64,000 nt of DNA, from sequence record OQ031072; one strand, written 5' to 3'. Under the pieces are notes generated by a model. That model did not search any database and was not told the DNA's origin. It was given only the letters and a program-made list of their open reading frames with translations. Source of the stretch: Shigella phage SFPB. Below, piece by piece: positions 2,457 to 62,606 of the stretch (its first letter is position 1; each line of letters opens with the position of its first letter). Made by a program: the position numbers and the translations under genes.

Positions 2457-3030
2457 GAAAGGTATTGTCCGAGTTTTGGTTGATGTTATTGGTCACCGTT
2501 TAGCGAGAGACAAGAATAACAGACCAAACGTTATTAGGGCTTACCCTTCAGATAATTCCAATGATAAAGGTCTAAAACCAGACCAGCCTTTTATTACAGT
2601 ATACTGTCAAGATGCTACCACACCTTATGGTTGGGTTCTTGATAAGTTCGTGGAAGATGATGTAGTTTGTTACAGAATTGCTTTCCAGATTCCTGTACTG
2701 ATTACTGTAAATGGTAAAGGTGCTCACAGTATTATGCTTGAGCTAAAACAAAGATTAGAGATGAGTACTACAAGAGATTATCTAGCTGACATGACAGGTG
2801 CTTCAGTACTTGATACAGGGGCTATCCCAAATGATTATACTTATCTCAACACAGATTTTGAAAATTCTGCACCTCTTGTTGTAACCCTTGTAAAAAATTC
2901 AGTATTAAAAGATGAACGTGGAAGTATTATTGAACGTATCATTGTGGATGGTGAATTGGTTTACGAGGAAGGACAGGAGCCACCAGAATATACTATCCAT
3001 CTAGATGTAGACTCCAAAGGGGTAAAATAA
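2431..3030 (+). CDS. hypothetical tail completion/neck protein
   Basis: ORF in structural operon, 199 aa. Confidence 0.5.
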   Translation: MQLETAELEKGIVRVLVDVIGHRLARDKNNRPNVIRAYPSDNSNDKGLKPDQPFITVYCQDATTPYGWVLDKFVEDDVVCYRIAFQIPVLITVNGKGAHSIMLELKQRLEMSTTRDYLADMTGASVLDTGAIPNDYTYLNTDFENSAPLVVTLVKNSVLKDERGSIIERIIVDGELVYEEGQEPPEYTIHLDVDSKGVK

Positions 3031-4382
3031 ATGTGGAATCCAATTGTTAATGTAGATATTACATTGAACACAGCAGGAACTACAAGAGAAGGTTTTGGTT
3101 TACCATTATTCCTTGCTTCAACAGATAACTTTGAAGAAAGAATCCGTGGTTATACTTCATTAACAGAAGTAGCTGAAGACTTTGATGAAAGTACTGCTGC
3201 GTATAAAGCTGCAAAACAGCTATGGAGCCAAACTCAAAAGTAACTCAACTGTATATTGGTAGAAGAACTATGCAATATACTGTTTCTATTCCTGACACAG
3301 TGGCTGAAGGAAGTGAATATTCATTGACAGTTGCTATTGGTGGTGGTGTTTCTCAGCCATTCCAGTACACTGCAAAAGAAAGCGACACAGCACTTATTGT
3401 CTTGAATGAGTTTAAATCACAGATTGAAGCAAGCCCAACAATTAAAGATGGTGTTAATGTTAGTGTAACAGGTACTGGTGCTTCTGCGACGATGATTATT
3501 ACTAAAGCTGGTGATAATGACTTCGTAAAAGTAACGTCTATTACACCTACAACATCTATTGCAGCAACAACTGCTGACACGGCTTCCGCTGCTCTGGCAT
3601 CCATTGAAGCATATTCAACAGATTGGTACTTCATCTCAGCAGAAGACAGAACTCAACAGTTTGTCTTGGCAATGGCTTCAGAGATTCAGGCTCGTAAGAA
3701 GATTTTCTTCACAGCTAATGCTGACGTTAAGGCTCTGCAAGGCACTGATTTGACCTCTGCAACAGATGTTCCGGCACAGTTAGCTAAGAGCAAGTACACT
3801 CGTACAGTTTGCTTGTGGCATCACACAGCCGAGTATGACTACCCAGAAATGGCTTACATCGCATATGGTGCTCCATATGATGCAGGTTCAATTGCTTGGG
3901 GTAACGCTCAATTAACTGGTGTTGCAGCATCTCTACAACCTGCTAACCAGAGACCACTGACAAGCATTCAGAAGTCAGCTTTAGATACCCGTAGCTGTAA
4001 CTTCATTGACCTCGATGGTGGGGTTCCTGTAGTGCGTAGAGGTATCACTTCTGGTGGTGAATGGATTGATATTGTACGTGGTGTTGATTGGCTTGAATCT
4101 GATTTGAAAACATCTCTGAGAGACTTGCTAATTAATCAGAAGGGTGGTAAGATTACTTATGATGATACTGGTATTACCCGTATTCGTCAGGTCATTGAAA
4201 CATCTCTTCAGCGAGCAGTTAACAGAAACTTTTTGTCAACTTACACCGTTACTGTTCCTAAAGCCTCACAAGTTGCATTGGCAGATAAGAAAGCACGTAT
4301 CCTGAAAGACGTTACCTTCCACGGTATTCTTGCAGGGGCTATCTTGGATGTTGACTTGAAAGGCACAGTGGCTTACGAATAA
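3031..4382 (+). CDS. putative tail sheath protein, reading frame changes (-1) between about 3207 and 3243 (70-aa ORF 3031..3243 plus 386-aa ORF 3222..4382)
   Basis: Combined size (~456 aa) and position immediately upstream of the tube gene; the 22-nt out-of-frame overlap is atypical for this genome, where neighbours are TAATG/ATGA-coupled. Adding one A at A-run 3213-3216 or 3236-3239 fuses the ORFs. Confidence 0.4.
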
Positions 4383-5320: not shown

Positions 5321-5556
5321 GTTATTCTATGCAGACCCCGCTGACTGACGGGGCTGTAAAGGCAACTTATGATGAAGCAGATGAGATGAAATTTGTGCTT
5401 GCTATTTATGGTATGGATGGGTGTAAAGAAACACTCAACCAACTTTTTGATATGACCTTCGTTGATTTATTATCTCTACGTCAATATTTAGAAATCCAGA
5501 AGTCATATAAAGAAGAAATGGCTTACAACGAACTCAGAAAAGCAGGTAAAATTTAA
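5233..5556 (+). CDS. -1 frame extension of tail assembly chaperone (gpGT-like; predicted product 4919..5275 joined at -1 to 5275..5556)
   Basis: -1 frame is open from 5233; canonical slippery heptamer T_TTT_TTC at 5269-5275 in the zero frame; extension ends TAATG-coupled to the tape measure start. Confidence 0.5.
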   Translation, partial: LLSFCFGGKLRKFFRGKHFQKPNFSAGSLSYSMQTPLTDGAVKATYDEADEMKFVLAIYGMDGCKETLNQLFDMTFVDLLSLRQYLEIQKSYKEEMAYNELRKAGKI

Positions 5557-17175: not shown

Positions 17176-17183
17176 TTACCTTG

Positions 17184-17239
17184 TTGACTAACTGTCAAGA
17201 TGGTGTTAATATTTCTTAGTAGGTATTCTCACCATCTTG
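17184..17239 (+). promoter_or_regulatory. sigma70-like promoter (TTGACT-17-TAATAT) embedded in a 10-bp inverted repeat
   Basis: -35 17184-17189, -10 17207-17212; CAAGATGGTG 17196-17205 and CACCATCTTG 17230-17239. Confidence 0.4.
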
Positions 17240-17261
17240 GCTCAAGAAGTAAGGTGATTAA

Positions 17262-17834: not shown

Positions 17835-17862
17835 AAGGCTCCTTTTTACGGGAGCCTTTTTT
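17835..17862. terminator. bidirectional rho-independent terminator between convergent gene blocks
   Basis: AAGGCTCC-N8-GGAGCCTT stem flanked by T-run; plus and minus operons converge here. Confidence 0.6.
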
Positions 17863-17866
17863 GTTT

Positions 17867-18765
17867 CTACTTACCTACTGATAAAGGTGCTTCAATCTTA
17901 CCAGCATGTTTATACCCTTTCAACCCACCTAGAAAGTCATCTGCTGTCATATGTCTCAAGTCTTCAAGAGACTTCAAATCTTGATGAATTTCAAACTTAG
18001 GTGCTGGAAACTCTTCATTACCAAGAAGTTGAAAAACCTGCGACATATGGTTCTGGTATATTTGAGTATCACCATAAGTCCCTATCAGATATCGCGGTGT
18101 ATATCCCGTCAGTTTACACAACACTTCCAAGATAAAGGCATAGGAAGCGATGTTAAACGGTAACCCTAAGAACGTATCACAAGAACGCTGATACCATTTT
18201 AAATCCACCTCATTAGTGTTCGAGATATAAATCTGAAAAAGTACATGACAAGGTGCTAATGCCATAGAGTTACTTGAGATATCTGCTGCATTCCATGCGT
18301 TAACGAGCATGTAACGGTCTGTAGGGGACTTTCTCATCTTCTCTACAAGATTACTCAACTGGTCTACAACAACACCACCATGACCTTCGTAGGCTCTCCA
18401 TTGGACTCCGTAGATTCTTCCTCCAGCGTCCTCCAGCCAATCATTCTCTGTAGCATAGGTTGTTTTCAACCAACGTTTAAAATCATCTGTCCAGATAGTC
18501 CAACGCTCTCCGTCGTTCTCCCCCAAGTTCTGTAACGCAAATGGCCTAGTTGGTTTTCACCGTTCATAAACCATAATGCTTCACCGAGGACTTGACGCAT
18601 AAATGTTTGTTTTGAGGTGATTAATGGGAATCCACTACGCATATCAAAACGGAACTCAGGTGGAGCAAAGGTCGAAATCACTGAGCCAGTTCGGGTTTTA
18701 CGCAACTCACCAACTGATAAAACATGGTTTAAAATAGCTTTGTAGCTTACATCTGCTTGTGACAT
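17867..18765 (-). CDS. thyA: thymidylate synthase, frame interrupted (N-terminal ORF 18466..18765, C-terminal ORF 17867..18526); apparent 1-nt deficit at the G5/C5 run 18520-18524
   Basis: N-terminal part has RTGxG...FPLITSK...LWF; C-terminal part has ...WNAADISSNSMALAPCH...FQ..Y and LGLPFNIASYA; the two ORFs are in different frames. Confidence 0.85.
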
Positions 18766-18780
18766 ATTAGAAACGTCCTC

Positions 18781-19311
18781 TTACTTGTGGAACATAGGTA
18801 TCAAACACCACAGACTTATCTTCTGAGGTTTGGACTGTACTTTAGCAAATAACTCTGTGTCATACAAGTACTGGAAGAAACCCTCATAAGGTAGCTTGAC
18901 AGTAGCCTCTTCAGTAACTTCCTTAATAACACTGTGGAAAACTACGTCAGCATACGGCAAAGCTGAGATTAAGATATTGGCTCCACCGATTACTAAAACA
19001 TCTTCCTCAATAGAACTATCAATATACTTTAGGAAAGCCCCAAAAGCTTCAGACTTAACTCTTGCTTTGCAATGAGAGTCATCTTTAAAGTCCAGACCAT
19101 AAAAGTCAAGAGAGTTTGTTAAGACAAGGTTCTCACGGTTTGGCAAAGGTTTGCTCCCAAGAGTCTTCCAAGTTTCGCTACCCATCAAGACTAACTGGTT
19201 AACAGTCTGCTTCTTAAACTCTGCCATATCTTGTTTATTACGAGGCCAAGGCATTCCAGTAGCTGTGCCAAACTCCCCGTTAATACCACTTGCAAAAATT
19301 AACTTAATCAT
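18781..19311 (-). CDS. frd: dihydrofolate reductase
   Basis: MIKLIFASGINGEFG..MPW N-terminus typical of DHFR; adjacent to thyA as in T4-type phages. Confidence 0.75.
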   Translation of the reverse strand: MIKLIFASGINGEFGTATGMPWPRNKQDMAEFKKQTVNQLVLMGSETWKTLGSKPLPNRENLVLTNSLDFYGLDFKDDSHCKARVKSEAFGAFLKYIDSSIEEDVLVIGGANILISALPYADVVFHSVIKEVTEEATVKLPYEGFFQYLYDTELFAKVQSKPQKISLWCLIPMFHK

Positions 19312-19580
19312 TTTGTAAATCCTTTGATAATGAACCAGTTTAGAACACGCTTCACAATCCTGTTCGGATGGTAAATAAGGTGAGGCTGTGGTTCATAACT
19401 TCCATAAGCCCAAAAAGATAAAATCTTTCCACATCCACAGCAACGGGTGTACCCTTCAGCGATATTGCCAGAGACAATCTCTGAAACTTCACCTTGGAAG
19501 TTCTCACCTCCACAATGGCAGCATTTAACTGGCTCACCATTATTCATGTAACACTGTGATACTCCGCTTAAGATTTTCAT
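19308..19580 (-). CDS. Cys-rich zinc-binding small protein
   Basis: CCHCGG...CCGCG motifs; ATGA-coupled. Confidence 0.4.
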   Translation of the reverse strand: MKILSGVSQCYMNNGEPVKCCHCGGENFQGEVSEIVSGNIAEGYTRCCGCGKILSFWAYGSYEPQPHLIYHPNRIVKRVLNWFIIKGFTK

Positions 19581-20092
19581 TTTTTGTTTACCTTAAAAGT
19601 GCGTTCAAATTTTAGTATGAAATCAAGGTCATCAACTTCACTTGACAGAAAATCTTCAAAGTGTTTTGGCACAAAGTCTAAGAAACTCATAGAACCAAAG
19701 TCACCTGTCAGTTTGATAGTTCCTTGTTCATACTCAGCAGTTACTACATGACCACCTTCAGTCTGCTTAACAATCTCTACAATATCAGCTATGAAGATGT
19801 TTAGCAATGCTTTAAAACTTCTTGGATACTGTGTATCTGAGTACAGTTCAATACTTGGCTCCAGATTAACTTCAATAGAACGACTATCCCGTAGCTCTGG
19901 AGTAAATAAGTGAGCAGGAAGAACACACAGAGAGTCAGCAGTGTCTTCATCGATGAACTCAATAGTTCCTGCATCATAGTTTGTATCAATCAAGAATGTC
20001 TTCTCAGTATGATATGTAGCTTTCATATGCTCAGACAACATTGATTTCAAGAATTCTGCTTCAGGCTGGCAAAGGGTAATTCCAATTTTCAT
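19577..20092 (-). CDS. hypothetical protein
   Basis: 171-aa coupled ORF. Confidence 0.45.
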   Translation of the reverse strand: MKIGITLCQPEAEFLKSMLSEHMKATYHTEKTFLIDTNYDAGTIEFIDEDTADSLCVLPAHLFTPELRDSRSIEVNLEPSIELYSDTQYPRSFKALLNIFIADIVEIVKQTEGGHVVTAEYEQGTIKLTGDFGSMSFLDFVPKHFEDFLSSEVDDLDFILKFERTFKVNKK

Positions 20093-20093
20093 G

Positions 20094-20597
20094 TTAAACC
20101 TCTACAAAAGTATCCTTGTCATTATCGTACTTGAAGAATTTTATACACTTTTGTGTATTCCAGTCAACCTTTTCATCATAAGCAAGACCTTTTGCTACAC
20201 GCTTTCCAATAGTCTGTATGATGATTTCACGGAGTTTCATATACTCCTTCCAAGCTCTGGAGCCAATAGTTATATTAAATTTATTATAGCTCTCAACAGC
20301 TTGCTCATTCCAACGAATCTCATTTGGTCTTACAGGTTTGTAAAGACGTGGAAGCATTTCATAGCCCATATGACCTTCTTCTTTGGCTAGTTCGAGTTGG
20401 TGAAGATACTCATTCAACCGTCCATCTTCCTCAAGCCACCTGTGAAGTGTCTGCAAGCCTAAGATGTTGTTGTTAAAGTGTGATGCACGTTTCACAGAAC
20501 CTAAATCACAACGATAATCTGACTTTGGTAGTGATAGTATGCTGCCTTGCAATACACTGTACCCAAAGTATAAATCGAGTTTTAAGGGAAGAGACAT
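20094..20597 (-). CDS. hypothetical protein
   Basis: 167-aa ORF. Confidence 0.45.
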   Translation of the reverse strand: MSLPLKLDLYFGYSVLQGSILSLPKSDYRCDLGSVKRASHFNNNILGLQTLHRWLEEDGRLNEYLHQLELAKEEGHMGYEMLPRLYKPVRPNEIRWNEQAVESYNKFNITIGSRAWKEYMKLREIIIQTIGKRVAKGLAYDEKVDWNTQKCIKFFKYDNDKDTFVEV

Positions 20598-20941
20598 TTG
20601 ATATCCTCATTTTTAAACACAAAAGTTGTGTAGTTGTGACCATCAACATCTAACCAGACAGCCTTAACATCAACACCATCTAGATTCTCTGACAACTCTT
20701 TGATGAAGTGGTCTCGTACCTTTTTGGCACTGGTGGTTTCAAGTTTGATGTTAGAGATTGCAGAGCCAATTGCCATATAACCTCTTACACGGTTTGCTTC
20801 AGTATGCTTCATACCACCAGTTGTGTAAACCTCTTTCAAGGTCTCCAGAATTGCATTACCATAAAGCTTCTCTGCTGGAGTTGGTTTACCATAGAAGCCA
20901 ATTGCAAAGTTATCGTTAAAGATTGCATTTTCACGTTTCAT
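20582..20941 (-). CDS. hypothetical protein
   Basis: 119-aa ORF. Confidence 0.45.
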   Translation of the reverse strand: MKRENAIFNDNFAIGFYGKPTPAEKLYGNAILETLKEVYTTGGMKHTEANRVRGYMAIGSAISNIKLETTSAKKVRDHFIKELSENLDGVDVKAVWLDVDGHNYTTFVFKNEDIKCLFP

Positions 20942-20942
20942 A

Positions 20943-21242
20943 TTAATCTGCCAGCCTTAAGTTAAAATTTACACCAAGTTTTGTACAAGCATTAAGCATG
21001 TACTCTAAAGAAATCTTTTGAGGGTCGTTAATGATATTTGATACACGACTCTGTGAGATTTCACAAACAGTTGCTACTTGAGCCTGAGAAAGTTTTAGCT
21101 TCTCAATCTCTTTAGAGAATCTGAAAGATACAAAGTCTTTCATCTCTTCTATATCCATTGGACAGACATAACTCTCCATTTCAGCCTCTCTATCAGCCTC
21201 CCAAGAATCTTGAGGTGCATATGGGTCAAAGACTTCATTCAT
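20943..21242 (-). CDS. XRE/Cro-type helix-turn-helix transcriptional regulator
   Basis: LSQAQVATVCEISQSRVSNIIN...LEYMLNACTKLGVNFNL is a classic Cro/CI HTH. Confidence 0.6.
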   Translation of the reverse strand: MNEVFDPYAPQDSWEADREAEMESYVCPMDIEEMKDFVSFRFSKEIEKLKLSQAQVATVCEISQSRVSNIINDPQKISLEYMLNACTKLGVNFNLRLAD

Positions 21243-21438
21243 CTTTTTTTCTCCGTTTTCGAGAAGTGTCTATTAACGAATCAAGATTAGTTGCTCTGAC
21301 GTTTTCACGAGTCCCATTAATGTAGTTATCTAAAGACTCTACAACGGTTGCAAAATCATTAGCCCAAACTCTGTAAATAACTACTCCGTCATCATCGACC
21401 ACTTCACCATAGTCTGTTCTACAGATGTTCTTCCTCAT
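21235..21438 (-). CDS. hypothetical small protein
   Basis: 67-aa ORF with basic C-terminus. Confidence 0.4.
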   Translation of the reverse strand: MRKNICRTDYGEVVDDDGVVIYRVWANDFATVVESLDNYINGTRENVRATNLDSLIDTSRKRRKKDE

Positions 21439-21440
21439 GA

Positions 21441-21821
21441 TTATAAACCCATGCAGTGACGATTTTCAATAAAGTATTGAACACCTTTGAAAGACTCACG
21501 CATAAAGTTGTCTTTCACATCTTCTACAGTCTCAATACCTTTGCTATCAAGAAGGTCAACGTTCTGAGTGACCATCTCATCTGCTAATCTGTCATAGTAA
21601 TCTCCCATAAAATGGTAGTTGTAGTCAACCATCTTATCAGTCATTTCTTGAACAGTCTGAGCAGACAACGGTTTAGTCAACTCTCCAGCATTTGAAGCGA
21701 TTTTCTGTACAATCTTACAAGATTCTAAAGCGACACCATTAAAGTTTGCTTCAGGCATCTTCATAGCTGCTGCACTAAAACTCATACCAATAGCAATGAC
21801 ACCAACAAGTAACTTTTTCAT
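21441..21821 (-). CDS. secreted/periplasmic protein with signal peptide; start trimmed to ATG after GGAGG
   Basis: MKKLLVGVIAIGMSFSAAAM signal peptide; SD GGAGG 7 nt upstream. Confidence 0.5.
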   Translation of the reverse strand: MKKLLVGVIAIGMSFSAAAMKMPEANFNGVALESCKIVQKIASNAGELTKPLSAQTVQEMTDKMVDYNYHFMGDYYDRLADEMVTQNVDLLDSKGIETVEDVKDNFMRESFKGVQYFIENRHCMGL

Positions 21822-21838
21822 AAACACCTCCGAGGTTT

Positions 21839-21899
21839 CTGACGGGTTCCTATATAATTTTCTATATAGGTAGTATACCCGTCAGGTTACTCATGTCAA
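21839..21899 (-). promoter_or_regulatory. sigma70-like promoter (TTGACA-16-TATACT, minus strand) overlapping a nested palindrome
   Basis: -35 rc at 21894-21899, -10 rc at 21872-21877; palindrome CTGACGGGT 21839-21847 / ACCCGTCAG 21877-21885 with inner CCTATATA/TATATAGG. Confidence 0.45.
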
Positions 21900-22062
21900 C
21901 AATTTTATACTAAATACATTCTAACTGCTGCATTTACTGCAAATGACAACAGAGTAAGGGCTAAGGCTGCTTTGTATGTTATACTTAAAAGTTTACTTAT
22001 GAAGTAAGATAATGATAAAACAACAAAAACAAACAGGATAATTGTGCTAAACATGCTAACCT

Positions 22063-24922: not shown

Positions 24923-25119
24923 AGACGTTCACCTTTAAGGTAGCCTGTCTTATCCTTGATAATCTTACCTCCAGCAATAAAAATATCAACCTTGCGAAGA
25001 TTTTCATTAGAAAGCTTGAGGTGCTTATGGCTACTGCAAATGATGATGCACATAGCCTCAATCTCACTTTGAGAATATCCAGCACATTGCAGTTGAACTT
25101 CAATTTCTGAAATAGTCAT
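24919..25119 (-). CDS. hypothetical small protein
   Basis: 66-aa ORF. Confidence 0.4.
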   Translation of the reverse strand: MTISEIEVQLQCAGYSQSEIEAMCIIICSSHKHLKLSNENLRKVDIFIAGGKIIKDKTGYLKGERL

Positions 25120-25180
25120 ACAAGTCTCCTATACAATATATAGTATAAGGTACTCTTCCATGAGCACCTTGTCAACACTA

Positions 25181-32729: not shown

Positions 32730-32734
32730 AGTGT

Positions 32735-32771
32735 TTGACAAGGGAGTACGAAGTCTGTAAGATTGTACTCC
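32735..32771 (+). promoter_or_regulatory. sigma70-like promoter TTGACA-17-TAAGAT with 7-bp inverted repeat GGAGTAC/GTACTCC
   Basis: -35 32735-32740, -10 32758-32763; upstream AAGTGTTTGACA resembles the early cassette -35 context. Confidence 0.45.
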
Positions 32772-32814
32772 TTGATAGTTGAGTTGAAAGTTAATTTGAG
32801 AAAGAGGTATTAAA

Positions 32815-36881: not shown

Positions 36882-36905
36882 GGGGTCTCTTCGGAGACCC
36901 TTTTT
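36882..36905 (+). terminator. rho-independent terminator (GGTCTC-TTCG-GAGACC type)
   Basis: GGGGTCTC ttcg GAGACCC then TTTTT. Confidence 0.6.
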
Positions 36906-36925
36906 CACCTGTAGGATTTAATATA

Positions 36926-49911: not shown

Positions 49912-49973
49912 CTTGACAGTGGCATCTATAAAATTATATAGTTTGCCACATCGACAACTAAGGAGATACTCTT

Positions 49974-52346: not shown

Positions 52347-52353
52347 AAATAGT

Positions 52354-52382
52354 TTGACAGGGGCTGAAAAGCCCCTTAGAAT
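52354..52382 (+). promoter_or_regulatory. sigma70-like promoter TTGACA-17-TAGAAT whose spacer is the GGGGCTGAAAAGCCCC hairpin
   Basis: -35 52354-52359, hairpin 52360-52375, -10 52377-52382. Confidence 0.45.
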
Positions 52383-52425
52383 ACGAACCACTAAGTAATT
52401 TTAAACAACAAAGAGAGATATTGAA

Positions 52426-53554: not shown

Positions 53555-53580
53555 GGGGCTGCTTCGGCAGCCTTTTTTAT
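53555..53580 (+). terminator. rho-independent terminator
   Basis: GGCTGC ttcg GCAGCC then TTTTTT. Confidence 0.6.
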
Positions 53581-53608
53581 TTGAAAAATGTGCAGGTTAG
53601 TGTATAAT
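53581..53608 (+). promoter_or_regulatory. sigma70-like promoter TTGAAA-16-TATAAT
   Basis: -35 53581-53586, -10 53603-53608; spacer contains TGTGCAGGT, the iteron core. Confidence 0.5.
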
Positions 53609-58152: not shown

Positions 58153-58238
58153 TTGACTCTATGAATCCAGTTTTGTAGTATTTGCATCAACGGGGCAAGA
58201 TAAAGCCCCAACAATCCTAAACTGGAGAATCTAGAATG
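58153..58238 (+). promoter_or_regulatory. early-promoter cassette, variant B: TTGACT-17-TAGTAT, 5'UTR hairpin GGGGC-N8-GCCCC, CCTAAACTGGAGA RBS
   Basis: -35 58153-58158, -10 58176-58181, hairpin 58191-58208, ATG 58236. Confidence 0.6.
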
Positions 58239-58453: not shown

Positions 58454-58615
58454 ATGATTAAAGAAGGCAATGTAATAAGCTACAAAGATTTAGACGGATA
58501 CCCAAAAATTGGGAAAGTTTTCTACCTTTACAAGTCAGTGATGGATAATGACTGCATAGCCCTAACAAATGGCGACAAGATAACCATGAAAGATTTTATA
58601 AAAATTATTTCATAA
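58454..58615 (+). CDS. hypothetical small protein (53 aa), not in ORF track
   Basis: SD AAAGGG 8 nt upstream; stop abuts next cassette. Confidence 0.35.
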   Translation: MIKEGNVISYKDLDGYPKIGKVFYLYKSVMDNDCIALTNGDKITMKDFIKIIS

Positions 58616-58707
58616 AGTGCTTTACATGGGGTTTAAAAAGGTAGTATCTTAAGCCCCAGATAAAGAGCTTTACCACTAAACAATCCTAAACTGGAGATTC
58701 TAAAATG
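58616..58707 (+). promoter_or_regulatory. early-promoter cassette, variant A: AAGTGCTTTACA(-35) ... TAGTAT, hairpin GGGGTTTAA-N12-TTAAGCCCC, CCTAAACTGGAGA RBS
   Basis: repeat family member; ATG 58705. Confidence 0.6.
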
Positions 58708-59088
58708 AAAAAATATTATATGCCAAAATTCATCAAGAAAGAAAACTTTCGTGATGCTCTGGAAAAATACATGAATGAGCAGTTCAAAGGTAAATTAATT
58801 GTTGTCCACGCATACAATTTTAAGTATGATGTAAATGGAAACAAGACAAATCACTATACCGCTACGATGCTGGATGGTACACTCTCAGGTGAAAAAGCCA
58901 TTATCAATGCACTGGCTGGACGTGGTAAAACGTTGATACGTTGTGATAAACGCCGATATCAGGGCAGTTCTTATGGTTATGAGGATGCAGTCTATCACCT
59001 TGATAACATGGGTTACAATGTCGAAAAAGCTGGCGTGTCTCAAATGATTGGTAGTGATGGATATGTGACAATTTTTAAAATTAACTAA
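58705..59088 (+). CDS. hypothetical protein
   Basis: 127 aa, cassette-driven. Confidence 0.5.
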   Translation: MKKYYMPKFIKKENFRDALEKYMNEQFKGKLIVVHAYNFKYDVNGNKTNHYTATMLDGTLSGEKAIINALAGRGKTLIRCDKRRYQGSSYGYEDAVYHLDNMGYNVEKAGVSQMIGSDGYVTIFKIN

Positions 59089-59090
59089 TA

Positions 59091-59178
59091 AAGTGCTTTA
59101 CATGGGGTTTATAGTTCAATAAGATAAGCCCCAGATAAAGAACTTTATTACTAACCTAAACTGGAGATTCAAAAAATG
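59091..59178 (+). promoter_or_regulatory. early-promoter cassette, variant A
   Basis: AAGTGCTTTACA-17-TAAGAT, hairpin, CCTAAACTGGAGA; ATG 59176. Confidence 0.6.
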
Positions 59179-59433
59179 GCTACCATTAAAAACATCGTAA
59201 TTACTGCAAAATCCCGTGATGATGCTCGTGCAACTGCTAAAAAATTAAATGGTAAAGTGGTTGACAACGGAAAAGATTCTACTGTAAGATGGGGCGTAAA
59301 GACAGACAAAAAATTAACTCTTAAACATAGCTCTTACAATATGTTTAAAGGTGTAAAAACTATCGGTAACACTAACGTGTTTACAAAACAGGGTTACAAA
59401 ATGCACTTAGCATTAATTGGCAATTTAATCTAA
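59176..59433 (+). CDS. hypothetical small basic protein
   Basis: 85 aa. Confidence 0.5.
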   Translation: MATIKNIVITAKSRDDARATAKKLNGKVVDNGKDSTVRWGVKTDKKLTLKHSSYNMFKGVKTIGNTNVFTKQGYKMHLALIGNLI

Positions 59434-59522
59434 AAGTACTTTACATGGGGTTTATAAGTCGATAGTATAAGCCCCAGATAAAGAGCTTTACCAACAATCC
59501 TAAACTGGAGATTCAAAAAATG
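59434..59522 (+). promoter_or_regulatory. early-promoter cassette, variant A
   Basis: AAGTACTTTACA-17-TAGTAT, hairpin GGGGTTTATA/TATAAGCCCC, RBS; ATG 59520. Confidence 0.6.
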
Positions 59523-60032
59523 AAATCAGTCGAAAGCACCTTTGAAGTTCAAAAAGAAAAATTTACTATCATCTTTGAAGCAATGAATGTTTATGAGCCT
59601 TCCCATTGTGTGGATAACTGGCAATTCACTGATGAGCATAAAGGAGGAGTTACAATCAAAGTTAAAAACTCAGAACGTAACGGCTACAAATATGCAATTC
59701 CTATGCACTATGCGCTTTCACAGCTTGCCAGTGATTACGCAAAACAGGGAAGGGATAACCCATCATTAGCCGCTTACAAGAGCTTACAAGATGAACTAGA
59801 AAGGGATTTAGGGGCTAATAGCTACATTCTATACGCCTCAGTAGTTGACGCTGAAGGCAACACGGTTTTAAATAGTTTTTCCCTTGCGTATGGTTTTGAT
59901 TGGTGCTATCTTGACGGGGAAGATTTAGATTCACGCTTAAAAGAGGAAGTAAGCAATTCAGGTGCTGAAGAGGAAGTTTTAGAGCGCTTGGAAGATTTAA
60001 AAGATAGTGTGATGAATATCTTTAATATCTAA
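59520..60032 (+). CDS. hypothetical protein
   Basis: 170 aa. Confidence 0.5.
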   Translation: MKSVESTFEVQKEKFTIIFEAMNVYEPSHCVDNWQFTDEHKGGVTIKVKNSERNGYKYAIPMHYALSQLASDYAKQGRDNPSLAAYKSLQDELERDLGANSYILYASVVDAEGNTVLNSFSLAYGFDWCYLDGEDLDSRLKEEVSNSGAEEEVLERLEDLKDSVMNIFNI

Positions 60033-60120
60033 AAGTACTTTACATGGGGGTTATCAAGTTGCTAAGATAGCCCCAGATAAAGAGCTTTACCAACAATCCT
60101 AAACTGGAGAATCTAAAATG
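60033..60120 (+). promoter_or_regulatory. early-promoter cassette, variant A
   Basis: AAGTACTTTACA-18-TAAGAT, hairpin, RBS; ATG 60118. Confidence 0.6.
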
Positions 60121-60408
60121 AAAATTCCTGCTAATGTACGCTCAAAGTTAAGCCAATTACTACAAAACATTTCTTTTGTAGAATCTCATAGACGTTCACA
60201 GGATGTTATAGAGTGGTATCATGGGAAGATTAACAAGAAAGAAGTTTTAATCTGTATTTGGAACTTTCAAAAAGAACATGGCAAGCCATTGCTTCAGGTT
60301 GACATTTATGATAATACTAGCAAATCAGCAGTAAAATCAAAAGCTGATATGATTGATTCATATGAAATTAGTCACACTGGTAGATTATCACACGTTGGGA
60401 AGGTTTAA
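60118..60408 (+). CDS. hypothetical protein
   Basis: 96 aa. Confidence 0.5.
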   Translation: MKIPANVRSKLSQLLQNISFVESHRRSQDVIEWYHGKINKKEVLICIWNFQKEHGKPLLQVDIYDNTSKSAVKSKADMIDSYEISHTGRLSHVGKV

Positions 60409-60409
60409 A

Positions 60410-60736
60410 ATGTTACTTTCTGGTATCGCAATTCTGATTTCAATTGTGGCGCTATGTAAAGCTTATCAAGCCTCAGCATATGCAGATAAGGCCATCACAA
60501 GGAAAGTTAAAATAAACCTTGTAAGTAGCTTCTTAGAGCGTTTAAGCGTGGAACAATTACAACGTTTAGAGATGGGCTTCAGGTTTAAGGCAGACACTTA
60601 TCAAATCAGTGATGTTTTATCCGGTAACTTTGAGCTTGTTAATGATTACAATACGTTACTAAATGCTATTCAAGCTACTGATTTAAAAGAATATTATCCG
60701 GCTATTGCACAAGAAATTAATAAACGCAAAAAATAG
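60410..60736 (+). CDS. small membrane protein; start trimmed
   Basis: N-terminal TM LLSGIAILISIVALC; in frame with track ORF 60353..60736. Confidence 0.45.
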   Translation: MLLSGIAILISIVALCKAYQASAYADKAITRKVKINLVSSFLERLSVEQLQRLEMGFRFKADTYQISDVLSGNFELVNDYNTLLNAIQATDLKEYYPAIAQEINKRKK

Positions 60737-60737
60737 C

Positions 60738-60822
60738 TTGCAAAGGCAAATCAAAACAAGTAAAGTACTCATCAACGGGGCAAGCAAGCCCCCAACAATC
60801 CTAAACTGGAGAATCTAAGATG
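60738..60822 (+). promoter_or_regulatory. early-promoter cassette, variant B (TTGCAA-17-TAAAGT, hairpin GGGGCAAGCAAGCCCCC, RBS)
   Basis: -35 60738-60743, -10 60761-60766; ATG 60820. Confidence 0.6.
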
Positions 60823-61092
60823 TATACAACTAATAATGGCAGAACTTTAAATGTAACTTTAAAGCACTATGTAGATGGTGTATTAAACTTTGAAGACTTG
60901 CAAGCAGAACAGCACTTGTTAGCTTGGCAAGTAGCAGGATTACAAAAAACCGCCACCGGATATGGGAAGAAAATCCCTACATCTTGGAAAGTTCGATACC
61001 TTGGAAAGTTACGCAGAATTTATCAAGATGTTTACAGTAATAGTGGTGTAAGTTACATTATTGTTAGTGGTAAAAAGTTACATCTTGCTTAA
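60820..61092 (+). CDS. hypothetical protein
   Basis: 90 aa. Confidence 0.5.
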   Translation: MYTTNNGRTLNVTLKHYVDGVLNFEDLQAEQHLLAWQVAGLQKTATGYGKKIPTSWKVRYLGKLRRIYQDVYSNSGVSYIIVSGKKLHLA

Positions 61093-61094
61093 TA

Positions 61095-61182
61095 AAGTGC
61101 TTTACATGGGGTTTATAAGTCGATAGTATAAGCCCCAGATAAAGAACTTTATCACTAACCTAAACTGGAGATTCAAAAAATG
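61095..61182 (+). promoter_or_regulatory. early-promoter cassette, variant A (near-identical to copy at 59434)
   Basis: AAGTGCTTTACATGGGGTTTATAAGTCGATAGTATAAGCCCCAGATAAAGAAC...; ATG 61180. Confidence 0.6.
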
Positions 61183-61581
61183 GCTACGAACAAAGATATA
61201 GCAGTACTGAAAGCACGTTTGACCGTTAACCGTATTAATGCTATCACATCAACCGCACCAGATGAGGTTTTACATAACATTATCGGTAAAATTCAGGGTG
61301 TAATTTTAGACGTTGAAAACATCAGAAATTCACTTGCAAATGTTGCACAGGGTGTTACACTTGACGGCGCACAATATGAAATGGCTGATATGCTTTCAAA
61401 GTCAAAAGTTCTTAATAAAGAATTAGACTTGAAAATGTTTCGATTTGCTGTTAAAGTGTGGTTATCTGTTGAGTTTGATGCTAACTTTGCAATTGCTGAT
61501 TTCTTTGCAACGTGGTTACAACGTAATTTAGAAAAGCAAGATTTTCAAGATATCTGCGATACAATTTACGCAGAACTTTAA
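61180..61581 (+). CDS. hypothetical protein
   Basis: 133 aa. Confidence 0.5.
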   Translation: MATNKDIAVLKARLTVNRINAITSTAPDEVLHNIIGKIQGVILDVENIRNSLANVAQGVTLDGAQYEMADMLSKSKVLNKELDLKMFRFAVKVWLSVEFDANFAIADFFATWLQRNLEKQDFQDICDTIYAEL

Positions 61582-61588
61582 AAAACGT

Positions 61589-61675
61589 TTGACACTAATT
61601 TTTAGATAGATTAAAGTACTCATCAACGGGGCAAGACAGAAGCCCCAACAATCCTAAACTGGAGATTCAAAAATG
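61589..61675 (+). promoter_or_regulatory. early-promoter cassette, variant B (TTGACA-17-TAAAGT, hairpin, RBS)
   Basis: -35 61589-61594, -10 61612-61617; canonical ATG 61673. Confidence 0.6.
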
Positions 61676-61677
61676 AA

Positions 61678-62229
61678 ATGCTTTCACGGAACTACTCAAG
61701 AAAATTTTGTAAACCTGCTGAGTGGTGGAGAAAACCTTCAGGGGCTTGGAATTGCTCAGACAGTGACGGGTGTTTTTATGTTTACCCTGTTAGTAAGTTC
61801 TATGATGTAGAGGATATGGACGCAGAACAAATCACTGAAGAGGGTATTAGAAACGCTCTGGATAGCGCAAGTATCACAGCGGCTTTCCAGATGAAATCAC
61901 AAAAAATCGTTATCTTGGAACTTGATATTCCAGAAGATGAATTACAAGATGACTGGAGCTGTGAGAACATGAGCGATGTTGCAAGCTTTACAGAATACTT
62001 TGATAGGGCTTGGATTAAAAAGATTTACACAACTGAATTTAATGCTATGTATGCACCGTTTTTTGTACCTAACTTGAACAATAGAAATCTGGGCTATGTA
62101 CCTGATGAATTACATAACATTGCTGTAATGATTCAACGTAGCGATGAGATGAATAACGTGTTTTGTGATTTGTGCGACAACTTGCAATCTAACATAACAG
62201 AAAGCACTGTAAGCGACGTTTTAGCGTAA
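61678..62229 (+). CDS. hypothetical protein; start ambiguous (61678 in-frame ATG, or cassette-canonical ATG 61673 in the +1-offset frame joined at T5 run 61774-61778)
   Basis: 183-aa ORF from 61678; alternative 45-codon ORF from 61673 ends at 61810. Confidence 0.45.
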   Translation: MLSRNYSRKFCKPAEWWRKPSGAWNCSDSDGCFYVYPVSKFYDVEDMDAEQITEEGIRNALDSASITAAFQMKSQKIVILELDIPEDELQDDWSCENMSDVASFTEYFDRAWIKKIYTTEFNAMYAPFFVPNLNNRNLGYVPDELHNIAVMIQRSDEMNNVFCDLCDNLQSNITESTVSDVLA

Positions 62230-62292
62230 ACCATACAATCACACTAACAACATTCAAAAGCCCTGTATAGGGGCTTACAAGGGGTTTAAATC

Positions 62293-62529
62293 ATGTTAAC
62301 GACTATCTATCTCATGCTTGCCGTTTGCTCTGGTGCAAATAATTGTCATTATGGCATTATGGAATCTTTCGAAGGCACTAAACAAAATGCAGTAGAGGCT
62401 TGCAATATTGCTAGACAGGACTACCCGAAATCGTCTATAATGGGCTGTTATGTCTTACAAGGTGAAGACGAAAGCACAGAATACTACGAAAACGTTAATG
62501 AAGATGAGTTTTTAGAGATTTACAAATAA
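62293..62529 (+). CDS. small secreted/lipoprotein-like Cys-containing protein
   Basis: Hydrophobic N-terminus MLTTIYLMLAVCSG; 78 aa. Confidence 0.45.
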   Translation: MLTTIYLMLAVCSGANNCHYGIMESFEGTKQNAVEACNIARQDYPKSSIMGCYVLQGEDESTEYYENVNEDEFLEIYK

Positions 62530-62606
62530 AGTACTTTACATGGGGCTTTAAACCTTGCTACTATAAGCCCCAGATAAAGAGCTTTCCTAAACTGGAGATT
62601 CAAATG
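62529..62606 (+). promoter_or_regulatory. early-promoter cassette, variant A (shortened 3' part)
   Basis: AAGTACTTTACA-18-TACTAT, hairpin, CCTAAACTGGAGA; ATG 62604. Confidence 0.55.

What the first reader, a model, noticed from the sequence alone, without database searches (positions are those of the whole stretch)
21839..21899. Nested palindrome overlapping a strong leftward promoter, upstream of an operon ending in an HTH regulator
Seen: minus-strand TTGACA-16-TATACT promoter; overlapping its -10 and extending to the RBS is a palindrome CTGACGGGT...ACCCGTCAG enclosing CCTATATA-N6-TATATAGG. The operon it drives includes an XRE-type HTH regulator (20943-21242). Inference: an operator for autoregulation or timing of this block, or an RNA hairpin in the 5'UTR.
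Basis: partly seen in the sequence, partly recalled or inferred. Interest (0 to 1): 0.45.

Follow-up and report, generated by a model that had tools for sequence, protein, structure and literature searches.

The report
Promoter-plus-stem-loop cassette in Felix-O1-like phage
The nested palindrome is real, but it is best read as one copy of a compact promoter-plus-hairpin boundary cassette that recurs across this Felix-O1-like phage genome (as known from T4-like phages), not as a binding site for the nearby helix-turn-helix regulator.

Summary
On the minus strand, TTGACA-16-TATACT (21899-21872) overlaps a nested palindrome: outer 9 bp at 21885-21877/21847-21839, inner 8 bp at 21870-21863/21856-21849. 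It ends 7 nt before the SD of a 126-aa gene.

The window is a Mooglevirus, a Felix O1-like phage. In all ~35 related loci the -35, the -10 and the 16-nt spacing are essentially invariant.

- **Outer arms:** they occur in five unrelated sequence versions that stay complementary and sit at the same place (6 of 9 pairs changed on both sides). This is a stem selected for pairing.
- **HTH protein:** its recognition helix is invariant across those versions, so the outer palindrome is not its operator.
- **Own transcript:** RNA from this promoter would start inside the hairpin. The stem can therefore fold only in read-through RNA from the upstream polymerase-ligase genes, not in this promoter's 5'UTR.
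- **Inner repeat:** it is conserved as sequence, not as pairing. An operator role there cannot be excluded.

The same promoter-in-hairpin layout recurs at 12 or more gaps in the window, and this site is an indel hot spot between relatives. That matches the PeSL (promoter-early stem-loop) cassettes of T4-like phages. I found no description of them for Felix O1-like phages. Interest is modest.

The parts
21905..21907 (-). Stop codon (TAA) of the upstream 49-aa ORF (21905-22054). It lies in the AT-rich stretch just 5' of the -35.
   Evidence: This ORF is absent or replaced in relatives.
21894..21899 (-). -35 hexamer TTGACA of promoter P1.
   Evidence: Unchanged in nearly all related loci (one locus, L024, has TTGACC).
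21872..21877 (-). -10 hexamer TATACT, 16 nt after the -35.
   Evidence: Unchanged in relatives except L011 (TATGCT).
21877..21885 (-). Outer left arm CTGACGGGT. It fills the 3' half of the promoter spacer and ends on the first base of the -10.
   Evidence: Covaries with the right arm.
21839..21847 (-). Outer right arm ACCCGTCAG. It lies about +19 to +27 relative to the predicted start site and ends 7 nt before the SD.
21849..21870 (-). Inner repeat CCTATATA-N6-TATATAGG. It is part of a sequence-conserved AT-rich block (ATATA[C/G]AAAAT..ATATAGGAAC).
   Evidence: Conserved as sequence with no covariation, and pairing is lost in L006, L007 and EcSzw_1.
21863..21867 (-). Predicted transcription start of P1, 5-9 nt after the -10. 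It falls inside the inner left arm. This is an inference, not a mapped site.
   Evidence: Standard sigma-70 promoter geometry (established knowledge). RNA from this point has no special fold.
21819..21831 (-). SD GGAGG (21831-21827) and ATG (21821-21819) of the 126-aa signal-peptide-like protein (PHROG 4332).
17867..21821 (-). Tightly packed downstream gene string served by P1: 126 aa, 67 aa, HTH (20943-21242), four unknown genes, DHFR and thymidylate synthase. It runs to the bidirectional terminator at 17835-17858.
17184..17239 (+). Sibling cassette: TTGACT-17-TAATAT. The 10-bp repeat CAAGATGGTG/CACCATCTTG has its left arm in the spacer and -10. It lies between the tail-fibre gene and the holin block.
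   Evidence: z = -5.9
25142..25175 (-). Sibling cassette after the DNA polymerase gene. In TTGACA-[AGGTGCTC atggaa GAGTACCT]-TATACT the hairpin exactly fills a 22-nt spacer. It is followed by CTATAtattgTATAGGAG.
32735..32773 (+). Sibling cassette: TTGACA, then the stem AGGGAGTAC/GTACTCCTT enclosing the -10 TAAGAT.
49913..49949 (+). Sibling cassette with a nested repeat like the finding: TTGACA GTGGCA t CTATA aaatta TATAG tt TGCCAC.
   Evidence: (z = -3.3)
52354..52382 (+). Sibling cassette: TTGACA [GGGGCT gaaa AGCCCC] t TAGAAT. The hairpin lies inside the spacer.
   Evidence: z = -3.8
58614..62585 (+). Early region holding six copies of a conserved ~58-nt cassette: AAAGTrCTTTACATGGGGyTT-N12-16-AAGCCCCAGATAAAGArCTTT. 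The -35 TTTACA sits in the outer stem and a -10-like box in the loop. Copies start near 58614, 59090, 59435, 60034, 61094 and 62529.
   Evidence: The region is mosaic between relatives.

Best explanation
The element is a composite promoter/stem-loop boundary cassette of the PeSL type, placed between two gene blocks of a Felix O1-like phage.

- **Promoter (inferred from conservation):** a near-consensus sigma-70 promoter (P1) restarts transcription for the 126-aa...HTH...DHFR/ThyA block.
- **Stem (shown to be selected for pairing):** the promoter's sequence-free spacer and the sequence-free part of the 5'UTR have been recruited as the two arms of a 9-10-bp stem.
- **When the stem can form:** the left arm lies upstream of P1's own start site. 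The stem can therefore form only in RNA made by polymerases arriving from the upstream DNA-polymerase/ligase genes.
- **Likely action (inferred):** in that read-through RNA the hairpin marks the end of the upstream transcript, by attenuating or pausing transcription and/or by giving a processed, exonuclease-resistant 3' end. Expression of the downstream block then depends mainly on P1.
- **Evolutionary role:** the conserved promoter also serves as a recombination joint. Relatives differ by insertion or deletion of ORFs and non-coding modules on both sides of it.
- **Inner repeat:** the inner AT-rich 'palindrome' is mainly a conserved sequence at the start of the P1 transcript. It is not a conserved helix.
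For: 1. **Selected stem.** Five lineage-specific arm sequences are all perfectly complementary over 8-12 bp. In all of them the left arm ends at the first or second base of TATACT, and the right arm ends 29-40 nt after the -10.
   - On alignment A1 the outer helix has 6 of 9 pairs changed on both sides. Covariation is 0.248 against 0.147 in shuffles (0 of 500 reach it). Pairing is 84% against 25-45% when partners are slid.
   - Close relatives also compensate at a 10th pair: Michonne has C-G and HP1 has T-A.
2. **Real promoter.** The -35, the -10, the 16-nt spacing and the upstream AAGTTG are conserved while the spacer varies.
3. **Stem absent from P1's own RNA.** Geometry places the start inside the hairpin, and that RNA has z = +0.3 against -6.3 for the full hairpin.
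4. **Read-through is expected.** There is no terminator-like site on the minus strand between the upstream promoters and this site.
5. **Genome-wide architecture.**
   - Twelve or more gaps have a promoter inside or straddled by a hairpin.
   - Intergenic promoter-like sites reach z < -2.5 in 10 of 26 cases, against 1 of 70 intragenic decoys (p = 2e-6).
   - A six-copy cassette family occupies the early region.
6. **Indel hot spot.**
   - The distance from the ligase stop to P1 is 7, 78, ~160 or 185 nt in different relatives.
   - The distance from P1 to the 126-aa gene is ~80, ~270, ~415 or 1670-1980 nt.
[quoted passage not shown] One stem-loop was shown experimentally to terminate, the promoters were shown to be active, and recombination between cassettes was shown to generate indels (PMC2839356; PMC4122927).
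8. **Wobble pairs.** One-sided U.G to U-A or C-G changes occur in stems in the sense orientation: the 9th pair in L006, the 10th pair of the majority P1, and pairs 13-62 and 27-48 of the early cassette.
Against: - **No U-tract.** No U-run follows the stem here or in the sibling cassettes, whereas the genome's clear terminators all have T5 or more. Classical intrinsic termination is therefore doubtful, and the exact RNA-level effect is not established.
- **RNA versus DNA unresolved.** The sense-versus-antisense folding test matched the generic coding-strand bias. The window's own 10th position is C/A, which would be a wobble only on the antisense strand.
- **Not a sequence paralogue of other cassettes.** Apart from the promoter hexamers and a short CTATA..TATAGG motif, this cassette does not resemble the others in the window. 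RB49 PeSLs are a more uniform repeat family.
- **No experimental data.** No transcript-end or start-site data for any Felix O1-like phage could be found.
Confidence: 0.55

Rival explanations
1. Operator for the HTH regulator, restricted to the inner AT-rich motif. The conserved block ATATA[C/G]AAAAT..ATATAGGAAC at about +1 to +22 would be bound by the conserved HTH protein to shut off or time P1. The outer stem would be a separate feature.
For: - The inner block is conserved in sequence across lineages whose 126-aa proteins are only 33-60% identical.
- The HTH recognition helix is equally conserved.
- The position, overlapping the start site, is right for a repressor.
- A related short dyad, CTATA-N5/6-TATAG, sits at two other promoter gaps (2 found against 0.12 expected).
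Against: - The dyad symmetry is not conserved. The left half-site degenerates and the half-site spacing changes between 8 and 10.
- The finding's own repeat has a different spacing from the CTATA-N5/6-TATAG sites.
- The motif does not recur convincingly elsewhere. The 20269 hit is inside a gene.
- AT-rich initial transcribed regions and 5'UTRs are conserved for other reasons as well.
Confidence: 0.15
2. The whole nested palindrome is a duplex-DNA operator for a dimeric or tetrameric DNA-binding protein, whose specificity co-evolves with the arms.
For: Perfect dyad symmetry overlapping the -10 is a classical operator layout.
Against: - Five completely different arm sequences occur, with no conserved positions beyond the promoter elements.
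- The only nearby DNA-binding protein keeps the same recognition helix.
- The arm centres are 38 bp apart.
- The same layout occurs at many other promoters with unrelated arms.
Confidence: 0.04
3. DNA-level structural switch. The inverted repeat extrudes as a cruciform or single-strand hairpin under negative supercoiling or during replication. This destroys or alters the -10 and so couples P1 activity to DNA topology or timing.
For: - The stem is selected for pairing, and its left arm includes the first base of the -10.
- The RNA-versus-DNA tests were inconclusive.
- Some sibling cassettes have hairpins exactly filling over-long 22-23-nt spacers, at 25175-25142 and at P2 in relatives.
- Temporal control in Felix O1 is stated to be unknown (PMC3185647).
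Against: - In most lineages the arms are separated by 24-34 nt with poor inner pairing. By established knowledge of cruciform kinetics, extrusion is unfavourable with such large central spacers.
- G.T wobbles in several sibling stems would be mismatches on one DNA strand.
- No evidence was found for a natural sigma-70 promoter that works this way (my own knowledge).
Confidence: 0.07
4. Specifically an RNase III-type processing site. This is a sub-variant of the best explanation. The ~17-bp, two-helix hairpin with an asymmetric internal loop would be cut in read-through RNA, separating upstream and downstream mRNAs as in the phage T7 early region.
For: - The structure has two helices (9 + 8 bp) with a 6/1-nt internal loop in the window.
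- There is no U-tract.
- The position is between gene blocks.
- T7-type sites have this general shape (my own knowledge).
Against: - The upper (inner) helix is not conserved in the other lineages, so a double-helical substrate of about 20 bp is not a conserved feature.
- Sibling cassettes have varied shapes.
Confidence: 0.12
5. No function of its own. The palindrome would be a by-product or scar of recombination at a promoter hot spot.
For: The site is an indel junction. A single 9-bp inverted repeat is common by chance.
Against: Perfect complementarity is maintained independently in five arm versions at the same position. The nested arrangement is expected only 0.007 times per window.
Confidence: 0.05

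Closest known systems
PeSLs (promoter-early stem-loops) of T4-like phages RB49/phi1, PST/T4 and nt-1/KVP40 (Arbiol et al. 2010, PMC2839356; Comeau et al. 2014, PMC4122927)
   Same: - The element fills an intergenic gap in the same order: upstream stop codon in an AT-rich stretch, near-consensus sigma-70 promoter, stem-loop overlapping the -10 (or between -35 and -10), then SD and ATG.
- There are many copies per genome.
- The cassettes sit at ORF insertion/deletion junctions between close relatives.
   Different: - The host phage group is different: Ounavirinae, not T4-like.
- This copy is not a close sequence repeat of the other copies.
- The stem is long-range (29-nt interior) and nested, rather than a compact polyG/polyC hairpin.
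- Terminator activity is untested, and no U-tract is present.
Intrinsic (rho-independent) terminators
   Same: A stable hairpin in RNA at the end of a gene block. No other terminator lies between the two blocks.
   Different: No U-run follows the stem. The genome's evident terminators (for example 17835-17858, 36892-36915 and 53564-53590) look different.
Cro/CI-type operators of temperate phages (lambda, P22)
   Same: A dyad-symmetric sequence overlapping a promoter, with an HTH_3-family protein encoded in the operon.
   Different: - The outer arms change completely while the recognition helix does not.
- The arm spacing is far too large for one dimer.
- The phage is a virulent Felix O1-like type.
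- There is no set of repeated operator sites.
Phage T7 early-region RNase III sites (my own knowledge)
   Same: A hairpin with an internal loop between co-transcribed genes. Such a site would leave a protective 3' hairpin on the upstream mRNA.
   Different: The upper helix is not conserved in relatives. No cleavage data exist.

Membership tests
PeSL (promoter-early stem-loop cassette) | Fills the gap between the stop codon of a co-oriented upstream gene (in an AT-rich stretch) and the SD/ATG of the next gene | tested here: met
   TAA 21907-21905, AT-rich aaaattg, -35 ... SD 21831-21827, ATG 21821. The gap is 77-83 nt.
PeSL (promoter-early stem-loop cassette) | Near-consensus sigma-70 promoter sequence | tested here: met
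   TTGACA-16-TATACT scores 11 of 12 and is unique in the window. The hexamers and spacing are conserved in all relatives.
PeSL (promoter-early stem-loop cassette) | The promoter is active in vivo | not testable with these tools
   Needs a reporter fusion or start-site mapping. No transcriptomic data were found.
PeSL (promoter-early stem-loop cassette) | Stable stem-loop placed within or overlapping the promoter (between -35 and -10, or overlapping the -10) | tested here: met
   The left arm 21885-21877 ends on the first base of the -10. Folding energy is -22.3 kcal/mol, z = -6.3. The stem covaries.
PeSL (promoter-early stem-loop cassette) | The stem-loop terminates or attenuates transcription coming from upstream | not testable with these tools
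   Only indirect evidence: the stem can form only in read-through RNA. The lack of a U-tract argues against classical termination.
PeSL (promoter-early stem-loop cassette) | Many copies per genome forming a recognisable motif family | tested here: inconclusive
   The architecture recurs at 12 or more gaps and a six-copy sequence family exists. This copy shares only the hexamers and a short CTATA..TATAGG motif with the others.
PeSL (promoter-early stem-loop cassette) | Located at insertion/deletion/replacement junctions between closely related phages | tested here: met
   Matches to Sf17 and Moogle break at the -35. Variable content lies on both sides of P1. The cassette-rich early region is mosaic.
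Cro/CI-type HTH operator | The site sequence is conserved together with the cognate recognition helix (outer arms) | tested here: not met
   Five unrelated arm sequences against an invariant helix, ISQ[AS]RVSNI[IL]N.
Cro/CI-type HTH operator | Conserved dyad of about 14-20 bp with fixed half-site spacing (inner motif) | tested here: inconclusive
   The right half, ATATAGGAAC, is invariant. The left half is degenerate, the spacing is 8 or 10, and pairing or symmetry is lost in three lineages.
Intrinsic terminator | G+C-rich stem followed directly by a U-run | tested here: not met
   The stem is followed by AAACCUCGG. The terminator scan finds nothing here.
Rfam RNA families | Match to any curated covariance model | tested here: not met
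   No hit in the window at gathering thresholds.

The most novel reading that the evidence does not exclude
In Felix O1-like phages most host-type promoters are built into hairpins. The selected pairing between the promoter spacer and the +20 region may be a protein-free timing device rather than a mere transcript-end signal. It could act on the DNA (supercoiling- or replication-dependent extrusion that disables the -10), or through read-through RNA that controls whether the downstream block is expressed from upstream or from its own promoter. Such a device could help explain how a phage with no known polymerase-modifying factors orders its gene expression. The Felix O1 genome paper leaves that question open (PMC3185647).
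Probability: 0.1. Interest if true: 0.65.

Novelty: new member of a known kind. Interest (0 to 1): 0.3.

Why it matters
- **Gene expression in a widely used phage group.** Felix O1-like phages are used for Salmonella typing, biocontrol and therapy, yet their transcription signals are poorly described. The Felix O1 genome paper found only five promoters and left temporal control unexplained.
- **A usable annotation rule.** If promoter/stem-loop cassettes mark their gene-block boundaries, they can be used to locate transcription units.
- **Mosaicism explained.** The cassettes account for why indels cluster at particular intergenic sites.
- **Engineering sites.** They point to natural, tolerated insertion sites for phage engineering.
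- **Broader reach of the PeSL idea.** The concept would extend beyond the T4-like phages.
- **Correction of a plausible error.** The HTH-autoregulation reading of this palindrome looks reasonable but is probably wrong.

Tried and rejected
1. **First viral-collection scan.** TTGTTGACA-N16/17-TATACT was too unspecific and returned unrelated viruses. I discarded it. A stricter 18-base pattern added no new arm variants. It showed that unrelated gut-phage contigs with the same consensus promoter mostly lack the inverted repeat.
2. **Anchor choice.** The 126-aa protein as an anchor found only 2 loci. The ligase worked as an anchor and gave 29 loci.
3. **RNA versus DNA by strand comparison.** Cassette hairpins fold better in the sense strand in 15 of 17 cases. 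Random coding 50-mers show the same bias, so I rejected this as evidence.
4. **Inner motif as a recurring operator.** AAAATTATATAGG occurs at chance frequency. The 20269 hit is inside a gene. The dyad CTATA-N5/6-TATAG is enriched but has a different spacing from the finding.
5. **Outer arm as a dispersed repeat.** There are no other exact copies.
6. **Rfam.** There is no match for the window, or for the insert found in relatives.
7. **Solved structures.** No relative of the HTH protein was found.
8. **Literature.** Searches for start-site or transcriptome data, or for promoter/stem-loop descriptions in Felix O1-like phages, found nothing relevant.
9. **Intrinsic terminator reading.** Rejected because there is no U-tract.

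Full report
**1. What is there.**

On the minus strand the gap between a 49-aa ORF (stop at 21907-21905) and a 126-aa ORF (ATG at 21821) reads:

TAAaattgTTGACAtgagtaacCTGACGGGTATACTaCCTATATAgaaaatTATATAGGaACCCGTCAGaaacctcGGAGGtgtttATG.

- The -35 is at 21899-21894, the spacer is 16 nt and the -10 is at 21877-21872.
- The outer 9-bp repeat is at 21885-21877 / 21847-21839. The inner 8-bp repeat is at 21870-21863 / 21856-21849. Both are 100% complementary.
- It is the only perfect TTGACA-N15-18-TATACT in the window (expected 0.11).
- The full hairpin folds at -22.3 kcal/mol, z = -6.3.
- A lone perfect 9-bp inverted repeat is common (22 observed, 17.9 expected). The nested form is expected only 0.007 times per window.

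Two small corrections apply. The palindrome ends 7 nt before the SD, and the start codon is the ATG rather than the upstream GTG.

**2. Context.**

- The window is a Mooglevirus (Ounavirinae, Felix O1-like myovirus), ~99% identical here to Escherichia phage vB_EcoM_3HA14.
- The gap lies within a long leftward string. The order is DNA polymerase, small genes, DNA ligase, the 49-aa ORF, the gap, then 126 aa, 67 aa, HTH (20943-21242), four unknown genes, DHFR and thymidylate synthase. The string ends at a bidirectional terminator at 17835-17858.
- The HTH call is confirmed (Pfam HTH_3; PHROG 1373). It has no solved relative.
- No terminator-like site lies on the minus strand between the upstream promoters and the gap. 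Polymerases from upstream should therefore read into it.

**3. Comparative evidence.**

I fetched 29 ligase-anchored loci from IMG/VR and seven GenBank phages. Every one has the same promoter right after the ligase block: (A)AAGTTGTTGACA, a 16-nt spacer, then TATACT. The only exceptions are TTGACC in L024 and TATGCT in L011.

Every one also has a perfect 8-12-bp inverted repeat. The left arm ends on the first or second base of the -10, and the right arm ends 29-40 nt after the -10. The arm sequences fall into five unrelated versions:

| Version | Arms | Where found |
|---|---|---|
| 1 | (C/T)CTGACGGGT / ACCCGTCAG(G/A) | window, Sf14, Michonne, HP1 |
| 2 | TAGTGGGT / ACCCACTA | L006, ESh21 |
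| 3 | AAACATAGCAAG(T) / ... | L007, Sf13 |
| 4 | TCCGGTAGTT / AACTACCGGA | Suspvirus EcSzw_1, CHB7 |
| 5 | TGGTGAGTA / TACTCACCA | most Felixounavirus, plus Moogle, Sf17 and SUSP1/2 |

On an alignment of the eight single-cassette sequences, the outer helix has 6 of 9 pairs with changes on both sides. The covariation score is 0.248 against 0.147 for shuffles (0 of 500 reach it). Pairing is 84%, against 25-45% when the partners are slid. This holds even though the Suspvirus stem is one column out of register in that alignment.

The inner helix shows no covariation at all. It is conserved as sequence (ATATA[C/G]AAAAT..ATATAGGAAC) and loses pairing in three lineages.

Conclusion: the outer stem is under selection for base-pairing. 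The inner 'palindrome' is mainly a conserved AT-rich sequence.

**4.

*(a) HTH operator.*
- Across lineages with entirely different outer arms, the HTH recognition helix is unchanged: ISQ[A/S]RVSNI[I/L]N.
- The arm centres are 38 bp apart.
- The outer palindrome is therefore not that protein's sequence-specific operator.
- The conserved inner block remains a possible protein site. Against it, its dyad and spacing are not conserved and it does not recur convincingly.

*(b) 5'UTR hairpin.*
- With a start about 7 nt after TATACT (near 21865; standard sigma-70 geometry), the promoter's own RNA lacks the outer left arm and most of the inner left arm.
- That RNA has no unusual fold (z = +0.3).
- The stem can therefore form only in RNA, or single-stranded DNA, that spans the promoter, meaning read-through transcripts from the polymerase/ligase genes.

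**5. The layout is genome-wide.**

- I folded all intergenic gaps. Promoter-like hexamers sit inside or are straddled by hairpins at 17176-17261, 25104-25180, 32730-32814, 49912-49973 (nested, with a very similar CTATA..TATAG core), 52347-52425 and several early-region gaps.
- Six of the early-region gaps carry a conserved ~58-nt cassette.
- Intergenic promoter-like sites have fold z < -2.5 in 10 of 26 cases, against 1 of 70 intragenic decoys (Mann-Whitney p = 2e-6).
- None of these promoter-associated hairpins has a U-tract, unlike the evident terminators of the same genome.

**6. The site is a recombination joint.**

- BLAST matches of Sf17, Sf18, Sf19 and Moogle break exactly at the -35.
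- Between the ligase and P1 there is nothing, a 49-aa ORF, or one of two other small ORFs. The distances are 7, 78, ~160 or 185 nt.
- Between P1 and the 126-aa gene there are ~80 nt (window type), ~270, ~415 or 1670-1980 nt. The longer versions hold non-coding modules with or without two ORFs of 146 and 195 aa.
- In the long versions a second promoter-like block (P2) with its own hairpin precedes the 126-aa gene. It carries the same TATACT plus AT-rich leader as the window.
- The cassette-rich early region is likewise mosaic. 3HA14 drops from 98.7% identity at the ligase to ~81% over 78% of the query, in 5 pieces.

**7. Comparison with known systems.**

This anatomy matches the published PeSL definition:
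- The upstream stop codon lies in an AT-rich stretch.
- A sigma-70-like promoter follows.
[quoted passage not shown] - One stem-loop reduced lacZ like a strong terminator, and the promoters were active.
- Recombination between cassettes generated ORF indels (PMC2839356; PMC4122927).

PeSLs are described there only for T4-like phages. The Felix O1 genome paper lists five promoters, mentions no stem-loops at them, and states that temporal regulation is unknown (PMC3185647). Further searches found no such description for Ounavirinae.

I therefore file the finding as a PeSL-type cassette in a new phage group: a new member of a known kind. Three caveats apply:
- Terminator activity is untested and no U-tract is present.
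- This copy is not a close sequence repeat of the other copies.
- Whether the stem acts in RNA or in DNA is not settled. My strand-bias test was no better than the coding-strand baseline.

RNA is favoured for three reasons:
- The 24-34-nt interiors with poor inner pairing in most lineages are unfavourable for cruciform extrusion (established knowledge).
- Several stems carry sense-strand U.G pairs that alternate with U-A or C-G.
- The tested PeSL precedent acts on transcription from upstream.

**8. Mechanism, with status of each step.**

| Step | Status |
|---|---|
| The promoter elements are conserved | Shown |
| The outer stem is selected for pairing | Shown |
| The stem is absent from P1's own transcript | Shown, given standard start-site geometry |
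| The architecture recurs across the genome | Shown |
| The site is an indel junction | Shown |
| P1 is active | Inferred |
| The stem folds in read-through RNA and ends, attenuates or stabilises the upstream transcript, so the downstream block depends on P1 | Inferred |
| The cassettes promote modular shuffling | Inferred |

Confidence in this explanation is about 0.55. The rivals are listed separately: an inner-motif HTH operator (0.15), an RNase III site as a sub-variant (0.12), a DNA cruciform switch (0.07), a functionless scar (0.05) and a whole-palindrome operator (0.04).

**9. Verdict.**

It is an instance of a known kind of phage regulatory cassette in a group where it seems undescribed. 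Interest is 0.3. The most novel reading not excluded is hairpin-embedded promoters acting as a protein-free timing device, with probability about 0.1.

Noticed in passing
Relatives only, not in the window: e.g. L032:3608-3878, L012:3608-5460, L160 (Sf17):1323-1679 and 2711-3290: In most Ounavirinae, promoter P1 drives a non-coding insert instead of the 126-aa gene. The insert has 1-5 modules. Each module is a hairpin (CATCACTTAA..TTTAAGTGATG), then a period-5 tract (GGTNN)n of 6-12 or more units, then an H-type-pseudoknot-like motif (GGG-S1-NN-S2-NN(N)-S1'-AUUAAAAU-S2'). Four compensating S1/S2 combinations occur, with ~90 instances against 6 in controls. The last module ends in a terminator-like hairpin plus T5. 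There is no Rfam match, and it looks like an undescribed structured RNA family.
   Followed up: partly
window 17867-18766 (minus), near 18520: The thymidylate synthase gene at the end of this operon has a 1-nt deletion relative to phage 3HA14. This splits it into two overlapping ORFs (18466-18765 and 17867-18526). It is either a sequencing error or a pseudogene.
   Followed up: yes
window 58614-58671, 59090-59147, 59435-59491, 60034-60090, 61094-61151, 62529-62585 (+): Six copies of a conserved early-region cassette: AAAGTrCTTTACATGGGGyTT-N12-16-AAGCCCCAGATAAAGArCTTT. It is a double stem with the -35 TTTACA in the stem and a -10-like box in the loop. Each copy is followed by the conserved leader CCTAAACTGGAGA and an ATG. 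The region is highly mosaic between relatives.
   Followed up: partly
window 58153-58232, 60737-60819, 61582-61677 (+): A second early cassette type. A promoter-like site is followed by CATCAACGGGGCAAG..GCCCCAACAATCCTAAACTGGAGA. The G+C hairpin lies wholly downstream of the predicted start, so here it would be a genuine 5'UTR hairpin.
   Followed up: no
window 25142-25175 (minus); P2 block in relatives (e.g. L012 about 5380-5460): Perfect TTGACA and TATACT hexamers are separated by 22-23 nt, too far for a standard sigma-70 promoter. A hairpin exactly fills the interval at 25169-25148. In the relatives' P2 block the hairpin instead encloses the -35. The layout is conserved across lineages and its meaning is unknown.
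   Followed up: no
window 25129-25143 and 49926-49941: The dyad CTATA-N5/6-TATAG occurs twice (0.12 expected), both times at or after the -10 of promoter gaps. The 25129 site is conserved in relatives upstream of the ligase block. It is a candidate protein-binding site, distinct in spacing from the finding's inner repeat.
   Followed up: partly
window 21905-22054 (minus): The 49-aa hydrophobic ORF between the ligase and the promoter is a variable accessory. In relatives it is absent (P1 starts 7-8 nt after the ligase stop) or replaced by one of two other small ORFs.
   Followed up: partly
IMG/VR loci e.g. L248, L249, L257 (unrelated, 15-60-kb contigs): Several unrelated phage contig groups share the extended consensus AAAAAGTTGTTGACA-N16-TATACT with conserved downstream sequence. 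Most lack the spacer-to-downstream inverted repeat.
   Followed up: no
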